DNA from: Alphaproteobacteria bacterium
GTDB lineage: Bacteria; Pseudomonadota; Alphaproteobacteria; UBA828
Direction: 5' to 3'
NCBI GenBank assembly: GCA_022820945.1
Contig: JAJEEP010000040.1
Location: 47,536-111,535, forward strand
Length of the DNA: 64,000 bases
Below the pieces are notes generated by a model. The model searched no databases. It saw only the letters and a program-made list of their open reading frames with translations, and was not told where the DNA came from. Positions 32,141-51,422 of this stretch are shown here, one piece after another. The translations under genes were made by a program, and so were the position numbers. Position 1 is the stretch's first letter. Every line of letters begins with the position of its first letter.

Positions 32141-32899
32141 ATGAAGATCATGATCATCAACCCCAACTCGTCGCAGGACATGACCGACGCCGATGCCGTG
32201 GCCGGGCGCTCGGTCGCGCGGGAAGGCACCGAGGTCGTGGCGGTGACGCCGGACTACGCGCCGGCCTCGATCGAATCCTTCTACGACGAGTATCTGTGCG
32301 TGCCGGGCATCCTCAACGAGATCCGCAAGGGCGACCAACAGGGCTTCGACGCGTACATCATCGCCTGCTACGGCGACCCCGGCCTGCATGCCGCGCGCGA
32401 GATGACCGACAAACCGGTCATCGGCATTGCGGAAGCCTCGCTTTACCTGGCCTGCCAGCTCGCGGCGCGCGTCGCGATCGTCACCATCATCCCGCGCTTC
32501 CGGGTGCCGGTTGAGGACATGGTCGCGGGCTACGGGCTCAGCCACCGGGTGAGCGTGCGCACGTCGCCGGTCTACGTGCTTGACGTGGAGCAGGACTACG
32601 AGGGCTCGCTCGAGAAGCTGCGGCAGGAATGTTATCGCGCCCGCGACGAGGACGACGCCGAGGCGATCTGCCTGGGCTGCGCCGGCTTCGCGGAGTTCGC
32701 CGACGGGCTGGAAGCGGAGCTCGGCATCCCGGTGCTCGACGGGGTGGTGTGCGCCACCAAGATGGCCGAGAGCATCGTCGAGATCGGGCGCAAGACCAGC
32801 AAGTGGAAGACCTACAGGTTCCCGGAGCAAAAATCCTTCACCGGGATGCTGCATCCATTCAGCACCGAGGCTCCGGCCGGGAGAGCCGCAGCCGAGTAA
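32141..32899 (+). CDS. hydantoin/allantoin racemase (Asp/Glu/hydantoin racemase family)
   Basis: IINPNSS, SIES..DE, IACYGDPGL.AARE, PVIGIAEAS, CLGCAG, PVLDGV; both catalytic Cys present. Confidence 0.92.
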   Translation: MKIMIINPNSSQDMTDADAVAGRSVAREGTEVVAVTPDYAPASIESFYDEYLCVPGILNEIRKGDQQGFDAYIIACYGDPGLHAAREMTDKPVIGIAEASLYLACQLAARVAIVTIIPRFRVPVEDMVAGYGLSHRVSVRTSPVYVLDVEQDYEGSLEKLRQECYRARDEDDAEAICLGCAGFAEFADGLEAELGIPVLDGVVCATKMAESIVEIGRKTSKWKTYRFPEQKSFTGMLHPFSTEAPAGRAAAE

Positions 32900-34314: not shown

Positions 34315-34394
34315 GGCACTCAGACGTTCGACCGATCCTGGGCTGGGCCGTGTAGCCCGGTTGCGTGGCAGAGTGCGTGAGCGGCGCCGATCGC

Positions 34395-35324: not shown

Positions 35325-35326
35325 GC

Positions 35327-37886: not shown

Positions 37887-37999
37887 CCCGTGCCCCTATC
37901 GACACCATGGCGCCGAAACGGCCTCCCGGCGGGTCAGACCCTGCACGGGAGGCCGCCGTGGCCTCCTTACGGAGGAAACGCTCCTGTTATCGGTGCAGC

Positions 38000-39088: not shown

Positions 39089-39206
39089 TGATGCACTCCC
39101 TTTCTCACGTTCTTGCCAATAGTCGCGGAGGCTACATAGCCAGTGCGATAGGTTGCGGTACTTGTTGTTTCATATGCCGAGGATTCAGCATAGTCTCGGA
39201 ACTATC

Positions 39207-40088
39207 ATGTATCCAGCGCCGATTGAGACCTATTTCGCTCCGCGCACCATCGATGAGGCGCTCAAGTGCTGCGCCGAGGCAGGCGACGGCGCCATGTTCA
39301 TCGCTGGCGGCATGAGCCTGATGCAGGCGATGAAAGCGCGACTGGTGACGACGCGCGCGCTCGTCGACCTGAACGAGGTGGAGGAACTCAGCGGTCTCGC
39401 CAAGGGCCCGCGAGGCGTGACCGTGCGACCCATGACCCGCTACCGCGAGCTGGCGGTAACTACGGCCCTGCACGGCGCCATGCAGGCGATCGGCGATGCG
39501 GCGGCGACGGTGGGCGATCGGCAGGTGCGCAACGCCGGCACCATCGGCGGCAGCCTGTGCTGGAATTACGTCGCCTCGTGCATGCCTAATGTCTGCCTCT
39601 GCCTCGATGCGACTCTCGTCCTCGCGTCGCTAGAGGGTGGCGAGAGAACCGTGCCCATCGAGGAGTTCCTCGTCGGGCCGCTGGAAACCGCGCGGCATGA
39701 CGACGAGCTTTTAATCGAGATTAATTTTCCTGCCTCCAAGCATCACGGTGTCGCAAGCGCCTACAAGAAGTACGGAGGAACTGTCGACGGTTTGCCGATC
39801 GTGGGCATCGCCGCACTGATCGAAGTCGACGAGGCGGAGATCTGCTTGGATGCCCGCTTCAGCGTCGGCGGGATCCTCCCGACAGCCCGGCGCTTCGAGG
39901 GCGCCCGCGACATTTTGCGCGGCCGGCCGGGAACGTCCGAGGCCTTCGCCGAGGCCGCCAGCGCGGCGGCCGATGCCATCGAGACACAGAGCGATCACGT
40001 GGCCAGCGCCCACTACCGCAAGGTCTTGATCCGTACCCTCGGCCGCGATGTCCTGGCCGAGGCCCATGCGCGGGCGACGGGAGGCTAG
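39207..40088 (+). CDS. molybdenum hydroxylase FAD-binding medium subunit (CoxM-like, set 1)
   Basis: MYPA...YFAP.T..EA, IAGGMSL...MK.R, VGDRQVRNAGTIGGSL, D..ASA.YR. Start placed at ATG 39207. Confidence 0.9.
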   Translation: MYPAPIETYFAPRTIDEALKCCAEAGDGAMFIAGGMSLMQAMKARLVTTRALVDLNEVEELSGLAKGPRGVTVRPMTRYRELAVTTALHGAMQAIGDAAATVGDRQVRNAGTIGGSLCWNYVASCMPNVCLCLDATLVLASLEGGERTVPIEEFLVGPLETARHDDELLIEINFPASKHHGVASAYKKYGGTVDGLPIVGIAALIEVDEAEICLDARFSVGGILPTARRFEGARDILRGRPGTSEAFAEAASAAADAIETQSDHVASAHYRKVLIRTLGRDVLAEAHARATGG

Positions 40089-40092
40089 CGCC

Positions 40093-40608
40093 GTGGAGAA
40101 GACCATCACCGTCACCGTTAACGGCACGGCCTATGAGCGCACCGTGCCGCTCCGCCTCCTCCTCGTCGATTTCATCCGCGACGAGTGCGGCCTCACCGGC
40201 ACGCATGTCGGCTGCACCTACGAGGGGCGCTGTGGCGCCTGCACGGTGCATATCGAGGGCCGCGCCCACAAGTCCTGCATGAGGCTCGCGGTACAAGCCG
40301 ACGGCAGGGAGATCACCACCGTCGAGGGGCTCGCCGGGCAAGATAAGCTGCACCGCTTGCAAGAGACCTTTCGCCGCTATCACGCGCTCCAGTGCGGCTT
40401 TTGTACCAGCGGAATTCTGATGAACGCGGCGGACTTCCTGAGCGAGAACATCAACCCGAGCGAAGAGGAGGTTCGCCGCGCCCTGGTCGGCAATCTCTGC
40501 CGCTGCACCGGCTACAGCCACATCGTCGAGGCGATCCTCGCCGCCTCCGCCATGCGACACGGCGTGAAGCCGGCACCGCCCCCGGCGGAGACCGAGAGCC
40601 CGCCATGA
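40093..40608 (+). CDS. molybdenum hydroxylase [2Fe-2S] small subunit (CoxS-like, set 1)
   Basis: LTGTHVGC.....CGACTV, KSC, TVEGL, QCGFCT.G, GNLCRCTGY. Start placed at GTG 40093. Confidence 0.93.
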   Translation: MEKTITVTVNGTAYERTVPLRLLLVDFIRDECGLTGTHVGCTYEGRCGACTVHIEGRAHKSCMRLAVQADGREITTVEGLAGQDKLHRLQETFRRYHALQCGFCTSGILMNAADFLSENINPSEEEVRRALVGNLCRCTGYSHIVEAILAASAMRHGVKPAPPPAETESPP

Positions 40609-43013
40609 CCGCAACCGGGGAATCAGGCTGGATTGGCCGCTCGCTGGAGCGGCGCGAGGACGCGCGTCTGCTCACGGGCCAGGGCGAATATCTGGCCGAT
40701 GTCCGCGTGCCCGACTGCCTGTACCTCCGCTTCGTCCGCTCCAGCCACGCGCACGCGAAGATCAGGGACATCCGGCTGGAGGCAGCGCTCGCGATGCCTG
40801 GCGTGGTCGGCGCCATTACCGGCGCCGAGCTCTCGACAGAGATGCAGGGCCAGAAGATCCCGGTGCTGATCCCCGCCTTCCCCGCCAGGTACCGGCAGTA
40901 CTGGCCGCTCGCCGTGGACGAGGTGTACTGGCACGGCGAGCCGCTGGCCGCGGTCGTGGCGGAAGACAAGTACGTCGCCGAGGACGCCGCCGCCGCCGTG
41001 GAGGTCGATTACGAGCCGCTCCCCGTCGTCACCGACCCCGAGGCCGCGCTGCAGGATGGCGCGCCCCGCGTCTACGACGACTGGGACGACAACGAGATTT
41101 TTGGCACCAGCTATACCGGTGGCTTCGAGCCGGACGAGATCGCGAAGAACGACGCCGAGGTCGAGGCGCTGTTCGCCGAGGCCGACGTGGTGCTCAGGCA
41201 GCGCTTCCGCACCCAGCGCTGCGGCGTCTGCCCGATCGAGACCCGGGGGGCGCTTGCCACCTGGAGCGAGACCGACGGGCTCACCGTCCACCTGACGACG
41301 CAGCGCCCGCATATCGAGCGCCTCGCCCTTGCAGACCTTCTCGAGCTTTCAACCGCCGATGTTCGGGTCATCGCCCCGCGCGACCAGGGCGGCGGCTTCG
41401 GGGTCAAGGCGCCATTCTATCGCGAGCATGTCGTGGTCTGTCATCTCGCGCGCAAGTTGGGGCGCCCGGTGCGCTGGATCGAGACCCGCGAAGAGCACCT
41501 GATGACGGTCAGCCAGGAGCGCGACCAGATCCACGACCTCGAAATCGCGACGGACAAGGAGGGCCGCATCCACGCGCTCCGCAATCGCGGCATCGGCGAC
41601 GTGGGCGACGGGCGCCAGGGGGTCTACTGGGGCTTCGTCATGCCCTCGCTGGGCTCGGTGATGCTGCCTAACGCCTATGCCATCGACCGCGCCGACATCA
41701 AGCTGCGCTGCGCGGTCACCAACAAGACCTGCGTTAGCCCGTCGCGCTCGTTCGGCGCCCTGCCGACGCGCTTCGCGCTGGAGCGCGGCCTCGACATGCT
41801 GGCCCGCAAGCTCGGCCTGGAGACCGCCGCCCTCAAGCGAAAGAACCTGGTCACCGAGTTTCCCTTCACCAGCGTGACCGGGGTCCATCACGACAGCGGC
41901 AACTACGTGAAGGCCTGGGACACGCTGGTGGAGAGGGTCGATCTCGCCGGCTTTCGCGCGGCGCAGGAGGAGGACCGCGCCTCGGGGCGCTACATCGGGA
42001 TCGGCTTCGCCTGCGGCGCCGAGTTCTCCGGCATTCCGTCCGACGTGCTCGTGCCGCTGGAGAACCAGCCGGGCTACGGCGTGGTCACCATGCGCATCGA
42101 CCCGCGCGGCAAGGTCGCGATCCACGAAGGCGACGCACCGCAGGGCCAGAGCCACGAGACCACCATGGCGCAGGTCGCCGCGGACGCCTTCGGCATCCAC
42201 CCCGACGACGTGAGCGTGCGCCACGGCGATACCGGCACGACGCCGCTCAGCTCCGGCACTGTCGGCGCGCGCGGGGCCTCCTACACCGTCGCCGCCATCG
42301 CCGAGGCCGCCGCCGCTCTCAAGGCCAAGATGGCGCGCTACTTGATCCACGATCACGGGCTGGACGGAGCGACCGCCGACGACTTCAGCTTCACGGGCGG
42401 CGCGGTGATCTACGAGAAGGACGGAAACATCCAGCGCGAGTTCGGTGCGCTCGCGGATCGTATCGTCATGGGCTCGGTCAACGTGCCGCCCGGCGAGGAC
42501 CCGGGGCTCGAGCACACGGCCTACTTCGAGGCGCCCAAGCCCATGATCTGCTTCACCGCGCACGCCGCCAGGGTCGAGGTGGACATCGAGACCGGGCAGT
42601 TCGTCATCCTCGACTACACCACCTGCGAAGACGTCGGCACGGTCATCAACCCCATCGTCGTCGAGGGGCAGGTCCAGGGCGGCGTCGTGCAGGGCATGTC
42701 GAACGCCATGTTCGAAGAATTCCTCTACGACGAGAACGGCCAGCAGCTGACGGCGGACTTCGAGAATTATCGCCTCGCCTCTGCGGCGGATGTCCCGACC
42801 GTGACCGTGGGCCACTCGCCGACGCCATGCCCGGACCATCCTCTGGGCGTGCGTGCCGTGGGCGAAGGCCGGCCGGGACCGGTGCCCGGCGCGCTCGCCA
42901 ATGCCATCTGCGACGCGCTCGTGCCATTCGGAGTCGAGATCACGACGCTCCCGCTCAAGCCCGAGACGATTCTCGCCTTGATCGAGGCTGGCCGCGCCGG
43001 TAACGGTGGTTAG
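40605..43013 (+). CDS. molybdopterin-binding large subunit, xanthine/CO dehydrogenase family (set 1)
   Basis: RREDARLLTG.G.Y..D, GGGFG.K, DSGNY, PQGQ.HET, GDT, D.GTVINP..VEGQ.QGG, catalytic VGE. ATG overlaps the coxS stop. Confidence 0.93.
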   Translation: MTATGESGWIGRSLERREDARLLTGQGEYLADVRVPDCLYLRFVRSSHAHAKIRDIRLEAALAMPGVVGAITGAELSTEMQGQKIPVLIPAFPARYRQYWPLAVDEVYWHGEPLAAVVAEDKYVAEDAAAAVEVDYEPLPVVTDPEAALQDGAPRVYDDWDDNEIFGTSYTGGFEPDEIAKNDAEVEALFAEADVVLRQRFRTQRCGVCPIETRGALATWSETDGLTVHLTTQRPHIERLALADLLELSTADVRVIAPRDQGGGFGVKAPFYREHVVVCHLARKLGRPVRWIETREEHLMTVSQERDQIHDLEIATDKEGRIHALRNRGIGDVGDGRQGVYWGFVMPSLGSVMLPNAYAIDRADIKLRCAVTNKTCVSPSRSFGALPTRFALERGLDMLARKLGLETAALKRKNLVTEFPFTSVTGVHHDSGNYVKAWDTLVERVDLAGFRAAQEEDRASGRYIGIGFACGAEFSGIPSDVLVPLENQPGYGVVTMRIDPRGKVAIHEGDAPQGQSHETTMAQVAADAFGIHPDDVSVRHGDTGTTPLSSGTVGARGASYTVAAIAEAAAALKAKMARYLIHDHGLDGATADDFSFTGGAVIYEKDGNIQREFGALADRIVMGSVNVPPGEDPGLEHTAYFEAPKPMICFTAHAARVEVDIETGQFVILDYTTCEDVGTVINPIVVEGQVQGGVVQGMSNAMFEEFLYDENGQQLTADFENYRLASAADVPTVTVGHSPTPCPDHPLGVRAVGEGRPGPVPGALANAICDALVPFGVEITTLPLKPETILALIEAGRAGNGG

Positions 43014-43067
43014 CCCCGCCGGCCCGGAGCGGATACCTGGGACGGCCTGCGCGCAACGGATGAGTTC

Positions 43068-45110
43068 ATGAGCCTGCGAATTGCCATCGATACCGGGGGA
43101 ACGTTCACGGACGTCATCGCTATCGACGAGACGACGGGCGAGCAGCTTGCCATCAAGACGCCGAGCACGCCCGATGACCCCAGCCGGGGCCTGATCAACG
43201 GCATTGAGGAAGTCCTCGGCGAGCGGGACGCAAGCCTGAGCCAAATCCTGCACGGCACGACGACGGCGACCAACGCGGTATTGCAGCACCGTTTCGAAGG
43301 CCTTGGCCTGCTCGTGACGGCCGGCTTTCGGCACATCATCGAGATCGCGCGCCAATCCGTGCCCGACGGCTACGGCAACTCCTTCTTCTGGGTGAAGCCG
43401 CCGCGGCTCGTGCCCCTGCACCTCGTGCAAGAGGTGACGGAGCGCTTGAGCTACGACGGCTCCGTCATGACGCCTCTCGACGAAAAGAGCGTGATCGAGG
43501 CGGTGGACCATCTCGTGGACTTCGGCGTCACGCGCATCGCCGTCTGCCTGCTCCATTCCTACGCGAATCCGACGCACGAGCAGCGCGTCGGCGCGATCAT
43601 CGAAGAGCATTTCCCGGACACGTTCGTGTCGCTGTCCTCGGTCGTCCTCCCCGAATACCGCGAGTACGAGCGGGCGATGACGACTCTGATCGACGTGATG
43701 GTGAAGCCCTATTGCCAGACCTATCTCGGGCGTGCCCGCGACAGGATCGCCGAAGGTTCGGGCGACAAGCCCTTCCTGATCATGCAGTCCAACGGCGGCA
43801 TCGTCTCCAGCGAGGCGGCCGGCGAGAAGCCTGTGACGATGCTTTTGTCGGGGCCTGCGGGGGGCGTGCTCGGGGCCACCCACATGGCGAGCCTGGCCGG
43901 CTACCGCGACATCCTGACGCTGGATGTCGGCGGCACGTCCACCGATGTCTCGCTCGTGCGCGGGCTCACGCCGCAACTCTCCACACACACCACCGTCGAG
44001 CACTACCCGGTCAAGACACCCATGCTGGACGTGGTGGCGGTCGGCGCGGGCGGGGGCTCCCTGGCCTGGATCGATCCGTACGGCGCGCTCAAGGTCGGCC
44101 CGCAGAGCGCGGGCGCCGATCCTGGCCCCATCTGCTACCGGCGCGGCGGAACCGAGCCTACGGTGACGGACGCAGGCGTGGTGCTGGGGCGCCTGCCGGG
44201 TGCGCTGATCGGCGGTGGGCTCAAGCTCGATGTCGATGCCGCGCGGAGCGCCTTCGAGACTCTCGGCGAGACGCTCGGCCTCTCGGCAGAGGAAGCGGCC
44301 GCCGGCGTGCTCGAAATCGCGGCCTCCAACCAGGTCCAGGGCATTCGCCAGGTGACGACGACGCGCGGTCTCGACCCCGGCGACTATGCCATGATCGCCT
44401 TCGGCGGCGCGGGCGGGCTGTTCGCCGCCGATGTGGCCGACTTTCTCGGAATCAAGACCGCGGTCTCGCCGCCCAATCCGGGCAATCTCTCGGCCTTCGG
44501 CCTGCATGTCTGCGACATCAAGCGCGACTACGTGCGCACGCTGGTGCGCCAGCAGTCGAGCGCCACCGTCGACGAGCTTGACGGGTTGTGGGCAGAGCTG
44601 GAGCAGCTGGGCCGCGACGAAATCGCGGCCGAGGGCGTGGCGCGCGACGCGATCGTGCTCGAACGCAGCGCCGACGTCCGCTACGTTGGCGAGGGCCATG
44701 AGGTGCTGGTTCCCATTCCGGCCGGCCTTTCCGGAGGCGACGCCGTCGAGCACATGTGGTCGGACTTTCACCGGGTTCACGACGACACCTTCGGCTTCCA
44801 TTACGAGGGCAGCCAGGACGTCGAGGTCGTGAGCCTGCGCGTGCAGGCAATCGGGCGCATGCACCGTCCGGACGTGCGGACGATCGAGCCGGGAGCGGAC
44901 GCGCCCGGTCCTGCCGGAGCGCGCGATGTCTACTGGCGCGGGCGGGGCTGGATATCCTGCCCGATCTGGCGCCGGGAGGGATTGTCCCGCGGCTTCGCCA
45001 CACAAGGGCCGGGCATCGTCGAGGAGTACGGCTCGACCCTGGTCGTGCCCGAGGGCTGGGCGCTCCGGAACGACGACTACGGCAACCTCATCCTGGAGAA
45101 AATGGCATGA
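43068..45110 (+). CDS. hydantoinase A/5-oxoprolinase-family ATP-binding subunit (pair 2)
   Basis: IDTGGTFTD, HGTT.ATNA, PEYREYER, MQSNGG, LSGPAGG, DVGGTSTD, GAGGGS, GPQSAGADPGP, FGGAG. Confidence 0.94.
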   Translation: MSLRIAIDTGGTFTDVIAIDETTGEQLAIKTPSTPDDPSRGLINGIEEVLGERDASLSQILHGTTTATNAVLQHRFEGLGLLVTAGFRHIIEIARQSVPDGYGNSFFWVKPPRLVPLHLVQEVTERLSYDGSVMTPLDEKSVIEAVDHLVDFGVTRIAVCLLHSYANPTHEQRVGAIIEEHFPDTFVSLSSVVLPEYREYERAMTTLIDVMVKPYCQTYLGRARDRIAEGSGDKPFLIMQSNGGIVSSEAAGEKPVTMLLSGPAGGVLGATHMASLAGYRDILTLDVGGTSTDVSLVRGLTPQLSTHTTVEHYPVKTPMLDVVAVGAGGGSLAWIDPYGALKVGPQSAGADPGPICYRRGGTEPTVTDAGVVLGRLPGALIGGGLKLDVDAARSAFETLGETLGLSAEEAAAGVLEIAASNQVQGIRQVTTTRGLDPGDYAMIAFGGAGGLFAADVADFLGIKTAVSPPNPGNLSAFGLHVCDIKRDYVRTLVRQQSSATVDELDGLWAELEQLGRDEIAAEGVARDAIVLERSADVRYVGEGHEVLVPIPAGLSGGDAVEHMWSDFHRVHDDTFGFHYEGSQDVEVVSLRVQAIGRMHRPDVRTIEPGADAPGPAGARDVYWRGRGWISCPIWRREGLSRGFATQGPGIVEEYGSTLVVPEGWALRNDDYGNLILEKMA

Positions 45111-47026
45111 GCGCAGGAACCGCCAGGGGTGCAAGGTCTCCGCTCGGCCCGATCGAGCTCGAGGTCATCACCGGAACGATCCGCACCGCCGAGCTCGAAA
45201 TCGAGGCGGCGGTCGAGCGAACCGCGCGCTCGCCGATGATCCGGGATCAGCACGACTATCGGGTGGCGCTCTTCGATGCGAAGGGGCGCAAGCTGACCGG
45301 GCGCTCCTATGCCGCCCTGGTCGAGCCGGTCTTCGAGTATTTCGACGAGGGCGACATCCACCCGGGCGACATCTTCTTCTGGAACGACCCCTACAACAGC
45401 GCCGGCGGCATCGGGCACATCCCCGATCTCTGCACGACGATCCCCATCTTCCACGGCGACCGGCTGATCGGCTTCAGCCAGGTTTTCGGCCACCACGACG
45501 ACGTGGGCGGCTCGGTTCCCGGCAGCCTTCCGACCCACGCTACCGACATGTGGACGGAAGGATTGGTGGTGCCGCCCATCAAGATTTACGAACGCGGGAC
45601 GATCAACGAGGCGGTCTTCAAGATTATCTCGCGCAACTCGCGCCTCTCCGAGCATCTGCGCGGCGACCTCGATGCCGAAATCGGCGCCGCCAGGCTCGGC
45701 AGCCAGCGCATCGTGGCCTTGGCCGAACGCTATGGCGTCGATGCACTGGAGGCCGCTTACGACGCCATCATCGAAAACTGCGCGGAGACCATACGCCGCG
45801 AGCTACTCCCCATGATCCGGGACGGCGTCTATTCCTGGGAAGACTATATCGAGGATGACGGCGTCGAAGGCCCGCAGATGCATACGCTGCGGCTGACGAT
45901 GACCAAGACTGCCGACAAGATCGTGCTCGACTTCACGGGCACCTCGAAGGAAGCGAAGGGGCCGATCAACTGGCCGATCGATTACGCCGACGGAAAGTTC
46001 GCGCGCAAGTGGATGGGGCCGGTGCTCCGCTCGCTCGCGGCCACGCCCGAGCGGGCGGCCGAGATCGACATGAACGAGGGCGTGCTGGACGTCATCGAGC
46101 TGAAGTTCCCGCCCAAGGGAACACTTGTCACGCCGAGCTTCGGAAAGGCAACGGGTCTGCGCTTCTTCCCGCTGCTGCGCTCGCTTGGAATCTTTGCGGC
46201 CCTGCTGGCCAAGGCGACCGATGGGCGTATGCCGGCCGATCACGAGACGATCCGAATCTGGGGCCTGCATGGCGGGCGAATCGGGCATGACTTCTTCCTG
46301 TTCCGCGAGGTGCTCGGCGGCGGTGGACCGGGCCGCCCCTGGGCGGACGGCAGCGATGTCGTTCATGTGGTGCCGAACTCGCGCAACCTGCCGGCCGAGT
46401 TCTCGGAGACCCGCTACCCCGTCATCGTCGAGCGCCTGGGCCTCGCGACGGATTCGGGCGGGGCTGGCTGCCGGCGCGGCGGTTTCGGCTACGACAAGCG
46501 GGTCAGGGCACTCGAAGACTGCGAGGCGCTCTCCAACGCCGACCGCGCGCTGATCAACACTTATGGCGTTAACGGCGGCAAGTACGGGGGCACCTACGGC
46601 CTGGAGATCGACAATCCCGACGGCACGCGGCGCACGGTGGCCGGCATGGACGACCGCGTCGAGGTCGCCGCCGGCTCGACCATCAGGATCCGGACGACGG
46701 GCGGCGGCGGCTGGGGCGACCCGCTCGCGCGTGAGCCCGAGATGGTGTGCTACGACGTGCAGTGCGGCCTGGTCTCGGAGCAGGCGGCGCGCGACGACTA
46801 TGGCGTCGTGCTGGGGCGCGAGGGCCGGCGCTACACGGTCGACCAGGATGCGACCGACCGCTTGCGCGGGCGCATGAAGGCCGACCGCGGGCCGCTCCCC
46901 ATGTTCAGCCGCGGGCCCTATTTCGAGGAAATGAAGCGCAACAAGGGGATCGCCCGCCCGCCCGGCCACGACGACCCCGACGACGGCTGGTTCGCCGGCG
47001 GCATGGTCCCGGAGGCGGCGGAGTGA
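45107..47026 (+). CDS. hydantoinase B/5-oxoprolinase-family subunit (pair 2)
   Basis: RTARSP.IR...D, NDPY...GG.GH.PD, HHDDVGG.VPGS, EGL.VPP, DSGGAG.RRGG.G, GGGGWGDPL.R, A.DDYGVV. ATGA overlap with the A subunit. Confidence 0.93.
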   Translation: MSAGTARGARSPLGPIELEVITGTIRTAELEIEAAVERTARSPMIRDQHDYRVALFDAKGRKLTGRSYAALVEPVFEYFDEGDIHPGDIFFWNDPYNSAGGIGHIPDLCTTIPIFHGDRLIGFSQVFGHHDDVGGSVPGSLPTHATDMWTEGLVVPPIKIYERGTINEAVFKIISRNSRLSEHLRGDLDAEIGAARLGSQRIVALAERYGVDALEAAYDAIIENCAETIRRELLPMIRDGVYSWEDYIEDDGVEGPQMHTLRLTMTKTADKIVLDFTGTSKEAKGPINWPIDYADGKFARKWMGPVLRSLAATPERAAEIDMNEGVLDVIELKFPPKGTLVTPSFGKATGLRFFPLLRSLGIFAALLAKATDGRMPADHETIRIWGLHGGRIGHDFFLFREVLGGGGPGRPWADGSDVVHVVPNSRNLPAEFSETRYPVIVERLGLATDSGGAGCRRGGFGYDKRVRALEDCEALSNADRALINTYGVNGGKYGGTYGLEIDNPDGTRRTVAGMDDRVEVAAGSTIRIRTTGGGGWGDPLAREPEMVCYDVQCGLVSEQAARDDYGVVLGREGRRYTVDQDATDRLRGRMKADRGPLPMFSRGPYFEEMKRNKGIARPPGHDDPDDGWFAGGMVPEAAE

Positions 47027-47892
47027 AGCCGCCGCTGTTCGAGTATGTGGCGCCGCACAGCATCGAAGAAGCGCTGGAGGCCCTGGCGAGCGACGACATG
47101 GCGAGGCCGCTCGCGGGCGGCCAAAGCCTGATCCCCACGATGAACTTTCGCATCGCGGCTCCTTCCAGGCTGGTGGACCTTGCGCGGATCGATGCGCTCA
47201 AGGGGCACGCGGTCGAGGGGGACGTCATCAGGGTGGGCGCGATGACCCGCCAACGGGATCTCGAACGCGACGAGGCGGTGCGCCGCGCGAATCCCCTGAT
47301 TGCGGAAGTCCTGAGCAACGTCGCCCACATAGTCATTCGCAATCGCGGCACGGTGGGCGGCAGTATCGCCCACGCCGACGCCGCGGCGGAGCTACCCTGC
47401 ATGTTGCTGGCAACGGGCGGCTCGGTCGTGGCGCACCGCGCCGGGGGCGAGCGAACGATCGCCGCCGACGACCTCTTCCTGTTTCACATGACGACGGCGC
47501 TAGAGGCAGGCGAACTGCTGATCGAGGTCCGCATACCGACCCTTCCCCCCTCCACGGGTTACGCCTTCCAGGAGGTCGCGCGCCGCCACGGCGACTACGC
47601 ATTGGCCGGCGTCTGCGCGCTGGTGACGCTCGAGGACGGCGTCTGCACCGCCGTACGTCTTGCGGCCTGCGGAGTCGCTTCGAAACCCACGCGCCTTGCC
47701 GAGGCCGAGGCCGCGTTGCTGGGCGCCCCGCCTGAGGGGGAGGCCCTCGCGCGCGCTGCCTCGGCGGCGCGCGACGGCGCGACGGCGGCCGATGACCGTC
47801 AGGCCAGCGCTGACTACCGCAAGGACCTCGTGGCAGCACTGGTGCGGCGTACTGTAGCCAAGGCCGCCGAGCGGGCACGGGAGCGCGCGTGA
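47023..47892 (+). CDS. molybdenum hydroxylase FAD-binding medium subunit (CoxM-like, set 2)
   Basis: KPP.FEY.AP.S..EA, LAGGQSLIP.MNFR, IRNRGTVGGSIAHAD.AAELP, E.ARRHGDYA, ASADYR. GTGA overlap. Confidence 0.93.
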   Translation: MKPPLFEYVAPHSIEEALEALASDDMARPLAGGQSLIPTMNFRIAAPSRLVDLARIDALKGHAVEGDVIRVGAMTRQRDLERDEAVRRANPLIAEVLSNVAHIVIRNRGTVGGSIAHADAAAELPCMLLATGGSVVAHRAGGERTIAADDLFLFHMTTALEAGELLIEVRIPTLPPSTGYAFQEVARRHGDYALAGVCALVTLEDGVCTAVRLAACGVASKPTRLAEAEAALLGAPPEGEALARAASAARDGATAADDRQASADYRKDLVAALVRRTVAKAAERARERA

Positions 47893-48425
47893 TGGCTAGG
47901 TCGGCGGCGCGGAAGAAATTGCTTGGGCAGTCTCCCGATCCACAGGTAGCGGTGTCGATGACGGTCAACGGCGAGCGGGTCGAGCGCGAGGTCAGCCCCC
48001 GCCTGCTGCTGAGCGACTTCGTCCGCCACGAGCTTGGCCTGACGGGCACTCACGTCGGCTGCGAGCATGGCGTGTGCGGGTGCTGCACGGTGATCATCGA
48101 CGGAAAGGCCGGGCGGTCCTGCCTTGCCTTTGCCGTCCAGGCCGACGGCGCCGACATTCGAACGATCGAGAGCGTCGCGGCGCCCGACGGCACGCTTCAC
48201 CCTGTCCAGCGGGCCTTTCGCGAGTGTCACGGGCTGCAATGCGGCTACTGCACGCCGGGCTTCGTCATGTCGATCGTAGATTACCTCGAAGACAATCCCG
48301 ATCCAGACCTTTCGGAGGACGCCATTCGCGAGGTCCTCTCAGGCAACCTGTGCCGGTGCACGGGCTATAAAAATATCGTCGCCGCCTTTCGCCGCGGCGC
48401 CGAGTTGATGCGCGGCTCGCGATAG
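47889..48425 (+). CDS. molybdenum hydroxylase [2Fe-2S] small subunit (CoxS-like, set 2)
   Basis: LTGTHVGCEHGVCGCCTV, RSCL, HGLQCGYCTPG, GNLCRCTGY. Confidence 0.94.
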   Translation: MMARSAARKKLLGQSPDPQVAVSMTVNGERVEREVSPRLLLSDFVRHELGLTGTHVGCEHGVCGCCTVIIDGKAGRSCLAFAVQADGADIRTIESVAAPDGTLHPVQRAFRECHGLQCGYCTPGFVMSIVDYLEDNPDPDLSEDAIREVLSGNLCRCTGYKNIVAAFRRGAELMRGSR

Positions 48426-48444
48426 AGAAACGGAGACCCTGGAC

Positions 48445-50841
48445 GTGTCGACGCGCCAGTTCGGCGAGCCAATTGCACGCAACGCCGATGCTGCCCTCCT
48501 GCGCGGCGAGGGAAGCTTCATCGATGACATCGACCTTCCCGGCGCGCTCCATGCGGCGTTCGCCCGCAGCATGGTCGCCAGAGCGAAGATCCGCGCGATC
48601 GACACCAGCGCCGCGGAATCGCTCGACGGCGTGGTCAAGGTCTACACATGCGACAACATCGGCGCGCTCGATGCCCCGCTGCCGTTGCTGATACCGGCTC
48701 CCGACCTCACCCATCCGAAGACCCAGCGCCCGCTGGCCCGCGACGATGTGTTCTATGTCGGGCAGTGCATTGCGATGGTGGTGGCGGTCGACCGCTACGT
48801 CGCCGAGGATGCGGTGCGCCTGATCGATATCGACTACGATCCCCTGCCGGTCGAGTTGGACCTCGAAAAGGCGGTGAGCGACGACGCCCCGCGCGTGCAT
48901 CCGGACGTGCCCAACAACACCGCCGGAAACTTTTGCGTAGAGACCGGGGATACCGACGCGGCATTCGCGGAGGCCGAGCACGTCACGCGGGTCAAGATCC
49001 GCCTGGAGCGCAGCACGGCGGCGCCGATGGAATGCCGCGCCATCGCGGCGCGTTGGGAAGCCGTGACCGGAGAACTCACCGTGTGGGACGGCACGCAGGC
49101 GACACTCTCGGTACGCGGCGGCCTGGCCTCATTGTTCCGCATCGATGAGGACAAGGTGCGCGTGATCGCGCCCAATGTGGGCGGTGGCTTCGGTCAGAAG
49201 ATCATGATGTTTCACCCGGACGAGGTTCTGGTGCCGCTGGCTTCGATGGAGCTTGAGCGCCCGGTCAAGTACATCGAGGACAGGGTCGAGAACTTCATCG
49301 GCGCTTCTCAGGAGCGCACGCAGATCCACACGCTCGAAATCGCGGCCACGAAGGACGGCCGGGTGATCGGCCTCAAGGATGACTTCCTGCATGACACGGG
49401 CGCATTCATTCCTTACGGAATTGCAGTCGCCCACGTGAGCTCGACGTCGATCGCGGGCCCTTACCGCATCCCGAACTTCCGGGTCACGTTCCGCCCGGTC
49501 TATCTGCCGATGGTGCAGGTGACGCCCTACCGCGGCTGCGGCCGGCCGCATGCCTGCTACGCCATCGAGCGCGCCATGGATCAGCTCGCGGACGAGCTCG
49601 GCCTCGACCGTTTCGAGGTCCGCCGAAGAAACTTCATCGGGAAGGACGAGTTTCCCTATCCGCGCGAAGGCCTGATCTTCGCCGACGGTCTCCAGGTCAT
49701 CTACGACAGTGGCGACTACGAGGAGGCGCTTGAGCAGCTGGAGCAGGCGATCGATGTCGAGGGCTTTCGCGCGGAGCAGTCAGCGTCCCGCGAGGAGGGG
49801 CGCTATCTCGGCCTCGGCTTCGGGTTCTATGTCGAGGGAACCGGGCTCGGCCCCTACGAAGGCGGGCATATCAAGATTCACCCGATCACAGGCAAGATCT
49901 ACGTCAACACCGGGCTGACGGACCAGGGCCAGGGCCACGAGACGGTGTTCGCGCAAATCGCCGCCGAGCAGACTGGGGCACGCGTCGAGGACGTGATCGT
50001 CGTCGAAGGCAACACTGGCGCCTTCGAATGGGGGGTGGCGACCTTCGCGAGCCGCGCGGCGGTGTGCAGCGGCAACGCGATCCACATGGCGGCGGTGAAG
50101 GCGCGCGCGCAGATCGTCGAGGCGGCAGCCAACATGATGGAGTGCAGCCAGTCGGATATCGATCTCCACGACGGTGCGGCGTGGGTGAAGGGGACCGACC
50201 GCCGCGCGACGCTGGCGGAGATCGCGACCGCGACCAACCCGCTGCGCTATGCCTTCAACGAACCCTCCAAGAGCGCCACGCAGTTCGCGCCGGCGAGCCG
50301 TCACGACGGGCCGCAGCTTGCCGAAGGCAGGACTCCGGGAATCGAGGCGACCGACTACTACAGCCCACCCCACGCGACCTGGGCCTTCGGCGCTCATGCG
50401 GCCGTGATCGAAGTCGATCCCGAACTCTGCACGATCGATGTGAAGCGATACGTTTGCATTCACGATTGCGGGCGGATGATCAACCCGACCATCGTGGACG
50501 GCCAGGTGATGGGCGGGATCGCGCAGGGCGTGGGCGGCGCGTTCTACGAGCGCTGCGAGTTCGACGAAGAGGGAACCCCGCTCAACGCCAATTTCATGGA
50601 CTTCCTGATGCCCTACGCGACCGAGGTGCCCAACGCGGAGATCATGCACTCGGAGACGCCGTCGCCCCTCAATCCGCTTGGCGTGAAGGGCGTCGGCGAG
50701 GCCGGCACCATTCCGGTCGCGCAGGTCTACGCGTCAGCGGTGGAGGATGCCCTGCAACCCTTCGGGATCGCGCCAATCCGCGAGGCGCCGCTGACGCCGG
50801 ACGCCATTCACAGGATGCTCAGGCAGGCGCGCGACGCCTAA
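48445..50841 (+). CDS. molybdopterin-binding large subunit, form II CoxL-like (set 2)
   Basis: VGGGFGQK, PYRGCGRP loop, YDSGDY, YVEGTG.GPYEG, QGQGHET, TFASR, HDCG..INP..VDGQ..GG, NPLGVKGVGEAG. Confidence 0.93.
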   Translation: MSTRQFGEPIARNADAALLRGEGSFIDDIDLPGALHAAFARSMVARAKIRAIDTSAAESLDGVVKVYTCDNIGALDAPLPLLIPAPDLTHPKTQRPLARDDVFYVGQCIAMVVAVDRYVAEDAVRLIDIDYDPLPVELDLEKAVSDDAPRVHPDVPNNTAGNFCVETGDTDAAFAEAEHVTRVKIRLERSTAAPMECRAIAARWEAVTGELTVWDGTQATLSVRGGLASLFRIDEDKVRVIAPNVGGGFGQKIMMFHPDEVLVPLASMELERPVKYIEDRVENFIGASQERTQIHTLEIAATKDGRVIGLKDDFLHDTGAFIPYGIAVAHVSSTSIAGPYRIPNFRVTFRPVYLPMVQVTPYRGCGRPHACYAIERAMDQLADELGLDRFEVRRRNFIGKDEFPYPREGLIFADGLQVIYDSGDYEEALEQLEQAIDVEGFRAEQSASREEGRYLGLGFGFYVEGTGLGPYEGGHIKIHPITGKIYVNTGLTDQGQGHETVFAQIAAEQTGARVEDVIVVEGNTGAFEWGVATFASRAAVCSGNAIHMAAVKARAQIVEAAANMMECSQSDIDLHDGAAWVKGTDRRATLAEIATATNPLRYAFNEPSKSATQFAPASRHDGPQLAEGRTPGIEATDYYSPPHATWAFGAHAAVIEVDPELCTIDVKRYVCIHDCGRMINPTIVDGQVMGGIAQGVGGAFYERCEFDEEGTPLNANFMDFLMPYATEVPNAEIMHSETPSPLNPLGVKGVGEAGTIPVAQVYASAVEDALQPFGIAPIREAPLTPDAIHRMLRQARDA

Positions 50842-51422
50842 CTCGCGCGCCCGAACAGAAGCCCGATCATTCGCCTCATCCACGCAACGATGACGATGCG
50901 TGTGAGTTGCGTGGCCTCGATTGCCTGGGGAGGCTCCTGACCGTCCGCGCCGGCATCGGCTTCCTGCCCACCGCGCGCGAGCTTGTTGCGGAGACGCTCT
51001 GCAAACTGCGCGGTGAGGTGGTTGGCGACGTCCTGAACGATCCCGGAGCGGCCGATTTGCGCGAGCGCGCCGGAAAGCTTGATGTCGCCCGAGAGCCTGA
51101 CGAACGATCCGCCGTCTTGCTCCTGAATTTCGTAGGCAATGCTCGCCTTCGCGCGGTTGCCACCCCGGCGATCGACGCCCGAGGCTTCGATCCTGGCGGT
51201 GCGTGCATCGTGGTCCGTCTCGGCAATGGTGGCCTCGCCTTCGAACGCAGCCGTCACCGGCCCGAGCTTGACCGTGACCTTGCCTTGGTAGGTCGCCTTG
51301 CTGGTCTGGCCCAGAAGCTCCGTGCCCGGCATGCAGGTCACGACCTCGGGCACGTCCTGGAAGAACTCCCAGACGCGATGGGCAGGCTGATCGATACTGA
51401 ACGAGGCTTCGATGTCCGGCAC
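50838..51422 (-). CDS. coxG: CoxG / SRPBCC (START-fold) accessory protein
   Basis: F.I.QP...VW.F..D...V..CMPG.EL, Y.GKV.VKLGPV...FEG, LSG.LAQ.GR.G.V.DV...L..QFA..L, amphipathic C-terminal tail. Confidence 0.85.
   Translation of the reverse strand: MPDIEASFSIDQPAHRVWEFFQDVPEVVTCMPGTELLGQTSKATYQGKVTVKLGPVTAAFEGEATIAETDHDARTARIEASGVDRRGGNRAKASIAYEIQEQDGGSFVRLSGDIKLSGALAQIGRSGIVQDVANHLTAQFAERLRNKLARGGQEADAGADGQEPPQAIEATQLTRIVIVAWMRRMIGLLFGRAS

What the first reader, a model, noticed from the sequence alone, without database searches (positions are those of the whole stretch)
39207..50841. coxMSL - hydantoinase A/B - coxMSL sandwich operon
Seen: eight co-oriented genes with 4-bp overlaps at 40605-40608, 45107-45110, 47023-47026 and 47889-47892, and other gaps of 54 bp or less. 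The two triplets are divergent from each other. Established: neither large subunit has the form I AYxCSFR loop, so neither is a true CO dehydrogenase. Inference: sequential hydroxylation, ATP-dependent lactam hydrolysis and a second hydroxylation or aldehyde oxidation of an unknown N-heterocycle. I do not recognise this exact architecture as characterised.
Basis: partly seen in the sequence, partly recalled or inferred. Interest (0 to 1): 0.75.

Follow-up and report, generated by a model that had tools for sequence, protein, structure and literature searches.

The report
Ring-opening operon with two molybdenum hydroxylases
A sponge-symbiont bacterium carries a real eight-gene row in which a widespread but uncharacterised five-gene unit (an ATP-driven ring-opening enzyme plus a molybdenum hydroxylase) has a second hydroxylase and a nucleobase importer set beside it, most likely to break down a small nitrogen ring compound rather than to oxidise carbon monoxide.

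Summary
There are eight co-oriented intact genes, with 4-bp overlaps at the four stated junctions and other gaps of 4, 54 and 19 bp.

The row is not one conserved unit.
- **Core.** hyuA-hyuB-M2-S2-L2 with a convergent coxG-like gene recurs in 52 of 80 HyuB-orthologue loci, and 5 more are cut by contig ends. These come from Alphaproteobacteria, Actinomycetes, Thermoleophilia and others.
- **Unbiased sample.** In 401 genomes of the class, all 5 L2-like genes lie just downstream of a HyuB-like gene.
- **Accessory block.** M1-S1-L1 and the divergent Bmp ABC importer form an 8,750-bp block (34315-43064). It was found in 4 of the 80 loci plus this window and is cleanly missing from sister species.
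- **Displacement.** In 9 loci a true XdhAB-type enzyme stands where M2-S2-L2 normally is.
- **Partners.** Creatininase-family, CodA-like, isochorismatase-like and IclR genes recur nearby.
- **Importer.** Its binding protein resembles guanine-binding AtzT.

The best reading is hydroxylation plus ATP-driven opening of a nucleobase- or imidazolone-like ring. The substrate is unknown. I found no characterised equivalent. Two earlier notes of this scan flagged related modules on other DNA.

The parts
30662..32014 (+). M20 metallohydrolase, ArgE/DapE-type deacylase. Left part of the block that is collinear across the genus; candidate hydrolase for an N-acyl or N-carbamoyl product.
   Evidence: Pfam Peptidase_M20 + M20_dimer; TIGR01910 250.8 against a cut-off of 217.6; 83-93% orthologues upstream of HyuA in L017, L018, L024, L025, L028, L077.
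32141..32899 (+). Hydantoin/allantoin racemase-family protein.
   Evidence: Pfam Asp_Glu_race 168 bits; best solved relatives 3qvj 'putative hydantoin racemase' 201 bits and 5lfd 'allantoin racemase' 146 bits.
32963..34267 (+). Orphan solute-binding-like protein (SBP8), followed by a GC-rich hairpin at 34283-34314. In sister species it lies 86 bp (hairpin end to HyuA region) upstream of hyuA.
   Evidence: Weak Pfam SBP_bac_8 hit; synteny; sequence read.
34315..43064 (.). 8,750-bp accessory block: Bmp ABC importer on the - strand and M1-S1-L1 on the + strand. Present in this window and in L019, L022, L023, L044. In L017, L018, L025, L028, L077 an 86-bp spacer stands in its place.
   Evidence: blastn collinearity breaks at 34314 and 43065; L100 shows the same left flank in a sandwich genome; nucleotide identity of block and core is alike, 84-93%.
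34395..36400 (-). Two ABC permeases (34395-35324 and 35327-36400).
   Evidence: Pfam BPD_transp_2.
36393..37886 (-). ABC ATPase with two ATP-binding domains.
   Evidence: Pfam ABC_tran, 2 stretches.
38000..39088 (-). Bmp/PnrA-family substrate-binding protein of the nucleobase-binding kind, divergent from M1.
   Evidence: Pfam Bmp 145.5 bits; best solved relatives 6pi5 AtzT 220 bits and 3s99 209 bits; AtzT was crystallised with guanine bound (abstract of PMC6834077); 98-99% amino-acid identity in the four sandwich loci.
39207..40088 (+). M1, FAD-binding medium subunit of Mo hydroxylase 1.
   Evidence: Pfam FAD_binding_5 + CO_deh_flav_C.
40093..40608 (+). S1, [2Fe-2S] small subunit of Mo hydroxylase 1.
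   Evidence: Pfam Fer2_2 + Fer2.
40605..43013 (+). L1, molybdopterin large subunit 1 (802 aa). Active-site loop SPSRSFGALP.
   Evidence: Pfam Ald_Xan_dh_C + MoCoBD_1 + MoCoBD_2; no NCBIfam cut-off reached; best solved relative quinoline 2-oxidoreductase 1t3q 416.9 bits; loop conserved in 4 of 4 orthologues.
43068..45110 (+). HyuA, ATP-dependent hydantoinase/oxoprolinase A subunit.
   Evidence: Pfam Hydant_A_N + Hydantoinase_A + Hydant_A_C; best solved relative 7hk5 'N-methylhydantoinase' 476.5 bits.
45107..47026 (+). HyuB, hydantoinase/oxoprolinase B subunit. Its stop overlaps the M2 start.
   Evidence: Pfam Hydantoinase_B 441 bits; 7hk5 219 bits; orthologues at 61-96% in 80 loci.
47023..47892 (+). 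M2, FAD subunit of Mo hydroxylase 2 (conserved core).
   Evidence: Pfam; orthologues directly after HyuB.
47889..48425 (+). S2, [2Fe-2S] subunit of Mo hydroxylase 2.
   Evidence: Pfam; synteny.
48445..50841 (+). L2, molybdopterin large subunit 2 (798 aa). Loop PYRGCGRPHAC, a form II-like variant.
   Evidence: Pfam; NF040766 982.9 against 950, TIGR02416 512.9 against 991; YRGCGR in 52 of 53 orthologue alignments; loop alignment to solved enzymes.
50838..51422 (-). CoxG-like SRPBCC protein, convergent, overlapping the L2 stop by 4 bp.
   Evidence: Pfam COXG 59.6 bits; orthologues at 40-86% next to L2 in many loci.

Best explanation
The eight-gene row is two units set side by side.

Unit 1 is the conserved core: hyuA-hyuB-M2-S2-L2 with a convergent coxG-like gene. 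It is a widely distributed, uncharacterised catabolic operon. A three-subunit molybdenum hydroxylase (L2, with a form II-like loop PYRGCGR) and an ATP-dependent cyclic-amide hydrolase of the hydantoinase/oxoprolinase family act on the same small nucleobase- or imidazolone-like N-heterocycle. The inferred chemistry is that the Mo enzyme turns a ring C-H next to nitrogen into C=O, giving a hydantoin-, ureide- or lactam-type ring. HyuAB then opens that stable ring at the cost of ATP. Electrons pass through the [2Fe-2S] and FAD subunits to the respiratory chain.

Unit 2 is accessory: a Bmp-type nucleobase ABC importer and a second, unrelated Mo hydroxylase M1-S1-L1, together 8,750 bp. It sits immediately upstream in only some species of this sponge-associated alphaproteobacterial genus. 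It probably supplies uptake and an extra or alternative hydroxylation that feeds the core.

Upstream, a hydantoin/allantoin-racemase-like gene and an M20 deacylase would handle a chiral 5-substituted ring and its opened product.

Shown: the gene structure, the modularity, the conservation and the family assignments. Inferred: the order of reactions and the kind of substrate. Unknown: the actual substrate.
For: - **Structure and families:**
- **Core conservation.** Among the best 80 of 166 HyuB relatives (61-96% identity, G+C of the loci 0.38-0.75), 52 have M2-S2-L2 orthologues directly downstream and 5 more have M2 and S2 before the contig ends. A further 9 have XdhA/XdhB there, 11 have no Mo enzyme there, and 3 have no room.
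- **Reciprocal test in 401 genomes of the class.** L2-like genes occur in 5 genomes and HyuB-like genes in 6. All 5 L2-like genes lie 1.4-1.6 kb downstream of the HyuB-like gene, and identities fall together: 70/77, 69/77, 47/52 and 47/53%.
- **Displacement.** The XdhA/XdhB genes pass the curated xanthine dehydrogenase cut-offs (643.7 against 467; 1142.6 against 849.5). In the HyuB tree those loci are nested inside core-type clades. A different Mo hydroxylase has therefore taken the same place more than once.
- **Recurring partners in the 80 loci:** creatininase family 43, IclR 25, isochorismatase-like 15, Rieske oxygenase 12, CodA-like amidohydrolase 12. A Bmp ABC transporter lies downstream in several.
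- **Importer.** The binding protein resembles guanine-binding AtzT. A paralogous Bmp transporter sits inside this genome's canonical purine cluster, and two more lie beside HyuB paralogues.
- **Same pairing elsewhere in this genome:** C119:25266-33372 (A-B-SDR-M-S-L), C68 (M-S-L-A-B) and C112.
- **No carboxylase subunit.** HyuB's stop overlaps the M2 start, which argues for a hydrolase rather than an acetone-carboxylase-type enzyme.
- **Accessory block:**
Against: - No substrate is identified and no expression data could be had, so the reaction order is inference from chemistry.
- 11 of 80 loci keep HyuAB without an adjacent Mo enzyme, for example L030 at 86% identity. The hydrolase can therefore work, or be encoded, apart from it.
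- The creatininase-family partner seen in 43 loci is missing from all genus-level loci. This genome has only a 32% paralogue, so the pathway here may differ from that of other genera.
- The partner families (creatininase, CodA-like, isochorismatase-like, creatinase-like) are exactly those of creatinine breakdown, where no Mo enzyme is known to take part.
- NCBIfam labels L2 a CO dehydrogenase.
- In some searches only 2-3 candidates per genome were scored.
- The HyuB tree is a FastTree, midpoint-rooted, and I did not examine its supports.
Confidence: 0.6

Rival explanations
1. Creatinine or N-methylhydantoin route. HyuAB is N-methylhydantoin amidohydrolase. The cluster degrades creatinine-type compounds supplied by the animal host, and the Mo hydroxylase has a side role, for example oxidising C5 of the ring or an aldehyde by-product.
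For: Partner genes in related loci belong to each family known (recalled) from creatinine breakdown: creatininase family 43 of 80 loci, CodA-like deaminase 12, isochorismatase-like hydrolase 15, creatinase-like M24 4. The best solved relative of HyuA and HyuB is named N-methylhydantoinase. In 'HyuAB only' loci the CodA-like gene follows HyuB directly. The DNA is found in sponge metagenome runs.
Against: No role for a Mo hydroxylase is known in creatinine breakdown, yet one lies directly downstream of HyuB in 66 of the 77 loci with room. The creatininase-family protein scores 111 against the creatininase cut-off of 235. The genus of this window lacks it and has a hydantoin/allantoin racemase-like gene instead, which an achiral N-methylhydantoin would not need. 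This genome has a separate cluster on C96 with a Bmp importer, HyuBA, creatinase-like genes and the CodA-like orthologue at 74%. That cluster fits creatinine better.
Confidence: 0.2
2. Oxidative pyrimidine route. Cytosine is deaminated by the CodA-like enzyme, uracil or thymine is hydroxylated by the Mo enzyme to (5-methyl)barbiturate, and HyuAB acts as an ATP-dependent barbiturase. This is a specific form of the best explanation.
For: There is a nucleobase-type importer. The CodA-like partner's best solved relative is cytosine deaminase, 193 bits. The isochorismatase-like partner weakly resembles RutB and biuret hydrolase. An XdhAB-type enzyme can take the place of M2-S2-L2.
Against: Nothing ties any gene here to uracil or barbiturate. 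The known barbiturase (recalled) belongs to another family. The CodA-like gene is in only 12 of 80 loci and is not in this window. A racemase has no obvious role.
Confidence: 0.15
3. All eight genes form one obligatory pathway: first hydroxylation (M1-S1-L1), ATP-dependent lactam hydrolysis (HyuAB), then a second hydroxylation or aldehyde oxidation (M2-S2-L2).
For: The genes are tightly packed and co-oriented, with only 54 bp and no terminator-like site between L1 and HyuA. The arrangement is kept in 4 other species-level loci with block and core equally diverged. Additional Mo hydroxylases of other kinds also lie next to the core in L031, L079 and L093.
Against: Sister species have the core without M1-S1-L1 (L017, L018, L024, L025, L028, L077), as do all other genera. 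L1-like genes elsewhere (59%; G000:C84 and G077) stand without HyuAB.
Confidence: 0.15
4. M2-S2-L2 is a genuine aerobic CO dehydrogenase, as NCBIfam NF040766 would name it, that merely neighbours unrelated hydantoinase genes.
For: L2 scores 982.9 against the 950 cut-off of NF040766. A coxG-like gene lies beside it. There is a conserved Cys in the active-site loop.
Against: There is no AY.CSFR loop. The Cys aligns one position after the copper-binding Cys of solved CODH. TIGR02416 scores 512.9 against 991. No coxD/E/F-type genes were seen in the Pfam scans of the genes I called across the window. There is translational overlap with hyuB. L2 is invariably linked to HyuAB and is replaced by XdhAB in 9 loci.
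Confidence: 0.03

Closest known systems
Form II ('putative') CoxL-type molybdenum hydroxylases, and the solved CoxL/Qor/Kdh group (M. smegmatis CODH 8uem, 6-hydroxypseudooxynicotine dehydrogenase 7dqx, quinoline 2-oxidoreductase 1t3q, S. tokodaii 4zoh)
   Same: Both have three subunits (FAD, 2x[2Fe-2S], molybdopterin) and the same domain order. L2 scores 463 bits to 8uem and 421 to 7dqx; L1 scores 417 to 1t3q. L2's loop YRGCGR is one residue away from the YRGAGR of form II enzymes and of 4zoh (the form II motif is recalled, and papers holding it are listed).
   Different: Neither L subunit has the copper loop of form I. No curated equivalog cut-off is met apart from NF040766 for L2. The gene order is M-S-L, not the S-L-M recalled for form II. 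L2's clade is defined by a nearly invariant TPYRGCGRP(Q/H)AC loop, a string that no paper in the library holds. It is also fixed next to hyuAB.
ATP-dependent N-methylhydantoin amidohydrolase, caprolactamase and 5-oxoprolinase (HyuA/HyuB family)
   Same: Two subunits with all family domains. The best solved relatives are 7hk5 'N-methylhydantoinase' and the 6yra caprolactamase-type pair. There is no extra carboxylase subunit.
   Different: Scores are far below the curated caprolactamase cut-offs (516 and 225 against 1000) and the acetophenone carboxylase cut-offs. None of the described members that I know of (recalled) is operonic with a Mo hydroxylase.
Hydantoin utilisation cluster hyuA-hyuB-hyuC-hyuE of Pseudomonas sp. 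NS671 (recalled, not seen in any call)
   Same: HyuA/HyuB together with a hydantoin-racemase-family gene and an M20 hydrolase in one neighbourhood.
   Different: The M20 protein here is ArgE/DapE-type, not shown to be a carbamoylase. One or two Mo hydroxylases and a nucleobase importer are added.
Canonical purine catabolism (xdhABC, urate oxidase, HIU hydrolase, OHCU decarboxylase, allantoinase)
   Same: A Mo hydroxylase works with a Bmp-type importer. In 9 related loci a true XdhAB follows hyuAB.
   Different: This genome has the canonical set elsewhere: C124 and a PuuE allantoinase on C24. L1 and L2 score 199 and 212 against the XdhB cut-off of 849.5. No urate-pathway genes lie by the cluster.

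Membership tests
Form I [MoCu] aerobic CO dehydrogenase (CoxL) | Active-site loop AY.CSFR with the copper-binding Cys (motif recalled) | tested here: not met
   A regex search finds none in L1 or L2. L2 has PYRGCGR, with its Cys aligned one position after the Cys of the solved CODH 1ffu. L1 has SPSRSFGA.
Form I [MoCu] aerobic CO dehydrogenase (CoxL) | Curated equivalog model TIGR02416 at its cut-off (991.15 bits) | tested here: not met
   L1 scores 461.0 and L2 scores 512.9 bits.
Form I [MoCu] aerobic CO dehydrogenase (CoxL) | Maturation genes coxD/E/F next to coxMSL (recalled) | tested here: not met
   No such families appear in the Pfam scans of the genes I called across the window. Only a coxG-like gene is present.
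NCBIfam NF040766 'CODH_aero_grp5' (exception model) | Score at or above 950 bits | tested here: met
   L2 scores 982.9 and L1 479.6, so L1 does not meet it. I could not see which proteins or evidence the model rests on. This is a label, not a tested function.
Form II CoxL | Loop AYRGAGR and gene order coxS-L-M (both recalled) | tested here: not met
   There is no exact motif. L2 differs at two positions (PYRGCGR). The gene order here is M-S-L.
Xanthine dehydrogenase family, three-subunit Mo hydroxylase | FAD_binding_5 + CO_deh_flav_C; Fer2 + Fer2_2; Ald_Xan_dh_C + MoCoBD_1 + MoCoBD_2 | tested here: met
   Both triplets meet it.
Xanthine dehydrogenase proper (XdhB) | TIGR02965 at 849.5 bits | tested here: not met
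   L1 scores 198.6 and L2 scores 211.8. The genome's own XdhB on C124 scores 1201.9.
Hydantoinase/oxoprolinase A and B (ATP-dependent) | Pfam Hydant_A_N, Hydantoinase_A, Hydant_A_C and Hydantoinase_B | tested here: met
Caprolactamase CapA/CapB | NF050156 and NF050157 at 1000 bits | tested here: not met
   Scores are 516.1 and 225.5.
Acetone/acetophenone carboxylase | Curated models, and extra subunit(s) encoded alongside (recalled) | tested here: not met
   ApcC 285, ApcA 215 and ApcD 103 against cut-offs of 1250-1500. There is no room for another gene between hyuB and M2.
N-methylhydantoin amidohydrolase (EC 3.5.2.14) | [quoted passage not shown] | not testable with these tools
   Only likeness is available: 7hk5 at 476 and 219 bits, and creatinine-type partner families in related loci.
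Bmp/PnrA ABC importer, nucleobase-binding kind | Bmp domain binding protein with two permeases and a double ATPase; likeness to a base-binding member | tested here: met
   Pfam. AtzT 6pi5 scores 220 bits, and AtzT holds guanine (abstract of PMC6834077). The ligand of this protein was not tested.

The most novel reading that the evidence does not exclude
hyuAB plus the PYRGCGR-loop Mo hydroxylase is an undescribed, widely spread two-step route. It hydroxylates a ring carbon and then opens the ring with ATP, acting on a nucleobase- or imidazolone-like compound. Examples would be a 4-imidazolone going to a hydantoin and then to an N-carbamoyl amino acid, or uracil going to barbiturate and then to ureidomalonate. 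If true, it would give the first physiological role to a clade of the long-unexplained 'form II-like CoxL' enzymes. Sponge symbionts would have multiplied this cassette (four Hyu-Mo clusters in this genome) and extended it with extra hydroxylases and importers to use host-derived N-heterocycles.
Probability: 0.4. Interest if true: 0.7.

Novelty: new variant of a known kind. Interest (0 to 1): 0.55.

Why it matters
CoxL-like genes are among the most over-represented genes in sponge symbionts. According to the one paper I read on this (section 13 of PMC8941161), the substrate of more than half of them is unknown. Many are counted as CO dehydrogenases in surveys.

Here one such clade is tied by conserved operon structure to an ATP-dependent ring-opening enzyme, a nucleobase-type importer and cyclic-amide hydrolases. 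That gives a concrete and testable organic-substrate hypothesis. It also warns that the curated label 'aerobic CO dehydrogenase' (NF040766) probably overcalls CO oxidation.

A cultured carrier exists: Microbaculum marinum KCTC 52363, locus L094. The question can therefore be taken to the bench.

Tried and rejected
- **Expression.** No RNA holder was listed for the stretch, so co-transcription could not be examined.
- **Promoter and terminator scan.** 0 promoter-like and 5 terminator-like sites, fewer than in the shuffles; uninformative.
- **Rfam.** No riboswitch in the window, only tRNA-Glu at 52455-52529.
- **Integration scars.** No tRNA-derived or long direct repeats flank the block or the cluster. 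The only repeat at the block's two ends is the 13-nt TAGCCCCGCCGGC at 34281 and 43011, and a simple deletion between those copies does not give the sister sequence.
- **Gain or loss of the block.** The DNA tree of the core has backbone supports of 31-61, so this is unresolved.
- **'HyuAB is this organism's missing allantoinase'.** Weakened, because a PuuE-type allantoinase passes its cut-off on C24. No AllB hit reaches its cut-off. The allantoicase search is void because its control matched in none of the 14 control genomes.
- **Literature.** Four searches for a hydantoinase/Mo-hydroxylase operon found no description: (0 papers). The motif YRGCGR appears in 0 papers. PMC12623156 was read in passages only and proposes nothing about this cluster.
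- **Earlier findings.** Look-ups by place and by L2 sequence returned nothing.
- **Read laying.** At 85% likeness, many joints come from paralogues in the metagenomes, so I used only the long near-identical pieces.
- **Not run.** Structure prediction, complex prediction and the large protein searches, because no claim here rests on them.

Full report
**Observation**

The window is high-G+C chromosomal DNA (about 67%) carrying housekeeping genes such as ligA, recN, recJ, hom, glpX and rpsI/rplM. It lies on contig C119 of a 4.66-Mb, 178-contig assembly that is 95% complete with 6.45% contamination.

Between 39207 and 50841 there are eight intact + strand ORFs. Start/stop overlaps of 4 bp occur at S1/L1, HyuA/HyuB, HyuB/M2 and M2/S2, and the other gaps are 4, 54 and 19 bp.

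Pfam gives two complete three-subunit xanthine-dehydrogenase-family sets in the order FAD subunit, [2Fe-2S] subunit, molybdopterin subunit. They flank a HyuA/HyuB hydantoinase/oxoprolinase pair. The triplets are old paralogues: M1/M2 33%, S1/S2 51% and L1/L2 35% identity.

Contigs of other public runs bridge the L1/HyuA junction nearly identically (X2 record 7 and X8 record 28). The join is therefore not an artefact of this assembly.

**Surroundings**

- Divergent from M1 lies a four-gene Bmp/PnrA-type ABC importer (34395-39088, - strand).
- Convergent on L2 lies a coxG-like SRPBCC gene.
- Further left are a solute-binding-like gene, a hydantoin/allantoin-racemase-family gene and an ArgE/DapE-type M20 hydrolase. 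The racemase's best solved relatives are 3qvj (201 bits) and allantoin racemase 5lfd (146 bits).

**The row is modular**

HyuB orthologues at 94-96% identity occur in 11 other genomes of the same genus, and at 73-79% in other genera and a second family of the order. I fetched their neighbourhoods and ran a wider scan of one genome per species (the best 80 of 166 relatives, 61-96% identity). Both show the same pattern.

| Arrangement downstream of HyuB | Loci (of 80) |
|---|---|
| M2-S2-L2 orthologues directly downstream | 52 |
| M2 and S2 present before the contig ends | 5 |
| Fused S-M gene plus a distant L gene | 9 |
| No Mo enzyme there | 11 |
| No room on the contig | 3 |

Of the 11 loci with no Mo enzyme downstream, L093 has L2 and S2 orthologues upstream.

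Only 4 loci (L019, L022, L023, L044), all at 94% HyuB identity or more, have M1-S1-L1 with the divergent transporter. Six sister loci of the genus (L017, L018, L024, L025, L028, L077) read M20, racemase, SBP8, HyuA, HyuB, M2, S2, L2.

blastn puts the break exactly at window 34314 and 43065. Sister genomes have an 86-bp spacer where the window has 8,750 bp. A sandwich genome has the same left flank (L100).

Block and core are equally diverged between species, at 84-93% nucleotide identity. The block is therefore old in the genus, not a recent import. Whether it was gained once or lost several times is unresolved.

L1-like genes are rare: 2 of 201 sampled genomes of the class at E<=1e-180. The 59% relatives in G000:C84 and in G077 stand without HyuAB; in G077 they lie beside urease genes, with an adenine deaminase gene about 5 kb away.

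**The core is a real, co-inherited unit**

In an unbiased sample of 401 genomes of the class, L2-like genes (E<=1e-200) occur in 5 genomes and HyuB-like genes in 6. In all 5, L2 lies 1.4-1.6 kb downstream of HyuB on the same strand. The identities of the two proteins fall together: 70/77, 69/77, 47/52 and 47/53%. One caveat is that only 2-3 candidates per genome were scored.

The loci span G+C of 0.38 to 0.75. By their record titles they include Alphaproteobacteria, Arenicellales, Actinomycetes, Thermoleophilia and Solirubrobacterales MAGs, and the cultured Microbaculum marinum KCTC 52363.

In a HyuB tree the M2-S2-L2 arrangement is found throughout, including the deepest actinobacterial branches (FastTree, midpoint-rooted, supports not examined). 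The 9 loci with the other Mo enzyme, and most 'HyuAB only' loci, are nested in two or three clades.

That other enzyme passes the curated xanthine dehydrogenase models: XdhA 643.7 against 467, and XdhB 1142.6 against 849.5. A different kind of Mo hydroxylase has thus repeatedly taken the same place behind hyuB. This is the strongest argument that hydroxylase and ring-opening enzyme serve one pathway.

**Partners that hint at the substrate**

De novo clustering of ORFs in the 80 loci, followed by Pfam, NCBIfam and tblastn, gives the recurring partners below.

| Partner family | Loci (of 80) | Note |
|---|---|---|
| Creatininase family | 43 | Usually right after L2/coxG; 111 bits against the creatininase cut-off of 235 |
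| IclR regulator | 25 | |
| Isochorismatase-like hydrolase | 15 | |
| Rieske oxygenase | 12 | |
| CodA-like amidohydrolase | 12 | Best solved relative cytosine deaminase, 193 bits |
| Creatinase-like M24 | 4 | |

Several loci also have a Bmp ABC transporter downstream.

The window's binding protein is most like AtzT (220 bits) and a Brucella Bmp protein (209 bits). AtzT was crystallised with guanine bound (abstract of PMC6834077).

In this genome a paralogous Bmp transporter sits inside the canonical purine cluster on C124, together with HIU hydrolase, XdhB, XdhC, urate oxidase and OHCU decarboxylase. Two further Bmp binding proteins lie beside HyuB paralogues on C96 and C50.

No urate-pathway genes lie next to the XdhAB-type loci. 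The genome also has a PuuE allantoinase. The cluster is therefore not simply purine or allantoin catabolism under another guise.

**The large subunits**

Neither has the form I loop or the exact form II loop. L2 orthologues carry a nearly invariant TPYRGCGRP(Q/H)AC, with YRGCGR in 52 of 53 alignments.

Aligned to solved enzymes, YRGCGR matches YRCSFR of CODH with the Cys one position late. It matches SYRGAGR of the S. tokodaii enzyme 4zoh and AYRAPGR of Kdh. L2 is thus a form II-like variant.

The best solved relatives are equally distant: CODH of M. smegmatis 463 bits, Kdh 421 and Qor 419 for L2, and Qor 417 for L1.

L2 does pass NCBIfam NF040766, named aerobic CO dehydrogenase large subunit, at 982.9 against 950. 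Against that label stand several points:
- the missing copper loop;
- TIGR02416 at 512.9 against 991;
- no coxDEF-type genes in the Pfam scans of the genes I called across the window;
- the translational overlap with hyuB;
- the invariable link to hyuAB, and the replacement by XdhAB.

I therefore give CO oxidation about 3%.

**The HyuAB pair**

All family domains are present. The best solved relatives are an enzyme named N-methylhydantoinase (476 and 219 bits) and the caprolactamase-type pair 6yra. Curated caprolactamase and acetophenone carboxylase cut-offs are far from met. No extra carboxylase subunit can be encoded between hyuB and M2. A hydrolase of a stable cyclic amide is the likeliest activity.

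**Genome context**

This genome holds 34 HyuA-like, 27 HyuB-like and 18 L-type genes, counted by tblastn at 55% query coverage or more.

Besides the window, three more places pair HyuAB with a Mo hydroxylase:
- C119:25266-33372, in the order A-B-SDR-M-S-L;
- C68, in the order M-S-L-A-B;
- C112.

In all, 5 of the 18 L genes are so linked.

Parts of the stretch are held by 20 listed public runs from 9 studies, most of them labelled sponge metagenome, and one of them may be the source of this DNA. I laid four of these runs, two of them labelled sponge metagenome. One paper reports CoxL-like genes as strongly enriched in sponge symbionts, with the substrate of more than half unknown (section 13 of PMC8941161 read). 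It mentions hyuA only as an acetone carboxylase marker.

**Mechanism proposed**

Shown: gene structure, modularity, conservation and family assignments.

Inferred: the Mo hydroxylase converts a ring C-H flanked by nitrogen into a carbonyl, giving a hydantoin-, ureide- or lactam-type ring. HyuAB opens that ring using ATP. In this genus the racemase-like and M20 proteins would handle a chiral 5-substituted ring and its N-acyl or N-carbamoyl product. The accessory block would add uptake of a nucleobase-like compound and a further hydroxylation.

The substrate is open. Three readings fit parts of the evidence:
- a 2-H-imidazolone oxidised to a hydantoin;
- a pyrimidine oxidised to a barbiturate;
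- a purine-like base.

The creatinine route fits the partner families but leaves the Mo enzyme unexplained, and this genome has a better creatinine-type cluster on C96.

**Comparison with what is known, and novelty**

My four literature searches for a hydantoinase/Mo-hydroxylase operon found no description, and no paper in the library holds the string YRGCGR. Supplements were not consulted.

Two earlier notes of this scan, on other DNA, describe related modules. Note e1-914498 covers the Rieske, isochorismatase, HyuAB, Mo variant, which I had found independently as the Defluviicoccus-type loci. Note e1-1381088 covers a HyuAB, SDR, Mo module like the paralogue on C119:25266-33372. They are AI notes and count only as leads. 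The core was therefore found before by this scan.

What is new here:
- the sandwich variant and its clean indel;
- the XdhAB displacement;
- the reciprocal linkage count;
- the L2 loop signature.

I rate the finding a new variant of a known kind, namely a catabolic operon built from known enzyme families in an undescribed and widely conserved combination. Interest is 0.55.

Noticed in passing
window 5986-10162 (-), with 5266-5955 (-) and 1866-5252 (+): A second HyuB/HyuA pair (726 and 712 aa) lies next to a short-chain dehydrogenase and a four-gene soluble di-iron monooxygenase set (Phenol_Hydrox alpha and beta, TmoB, MmoB). It may be an acetone- or ketone-type or lactam route. HyuB here is 32% identical to the one studied.
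   Followed up: no
G000 whole genome; C119:25266-33372, C68:39579-47136, C112:3513-10618: The genome shows a large expansion: 34 HyuA-like, 27 HyuB-like and 18 CoxL-like genes. Three further clusters pair HyuAB with a Mo hydroxylase, in the orders A-B-SDR-M-S-L, M-S-L-A-B and S-L-A(-B).
   Followed up: partly
G000:C96 (locus L104 1521-14468): A creatinine-type cluster holds a Bmp ABC importer, HyuB, HyuA, a creatinase-like M24, LysR, a second M24 and the 74% orthologue of the CodA-like amidohydrolase seen beside HyuAB in other genomes.
   Followed up: partly
G000:C124 (locus L101 3348-16617): The canonical purine cluster has a Bmp-type ABC importer embedded between xdhC and a PuuD-type urate oxidase.
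   Followed up: partly
window 52455-52529 (-) and about 30800 / 51480: tRNA-Glu(UUC) lies 1 kb beyond coxG. Collinearity with sister genomes ends near 30807 on the left and 51436-51483 on the right. Other species have different genes on both sides, so the roughly 20-kb unit from M20 to coxG sits in a different chromosomal place here. No att-like repeats were found.
   Followed up: partly
window 34281-34293 and 43011-43023: A 13-nt direct repeat, TAGCCCCGCCGGC, occurs at both ends of the 8.75-kb block. At the left end it forms the first arm of the hairpin after SBP8.
   Followed up: partly
window 22561-23640 (+): A lone Phenol_Hydrox-family gene stands next to a thiolase, enoyl-CoA hydratase and acyl-CoA dehydrogenase, apart from the monooxygenase set at 1866-5252.
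   Followed up: no
window 38000-39088 (-) versus L019, L022, L023, L044: The Bmp binding protein is 98-99% identical in amino acids between species whose DNA here is only 92-93% identical. The neighbouring enzymes are 86-96% identical. Purifying selection on the binding protein is therefore unusually strong.
   Followed up: no
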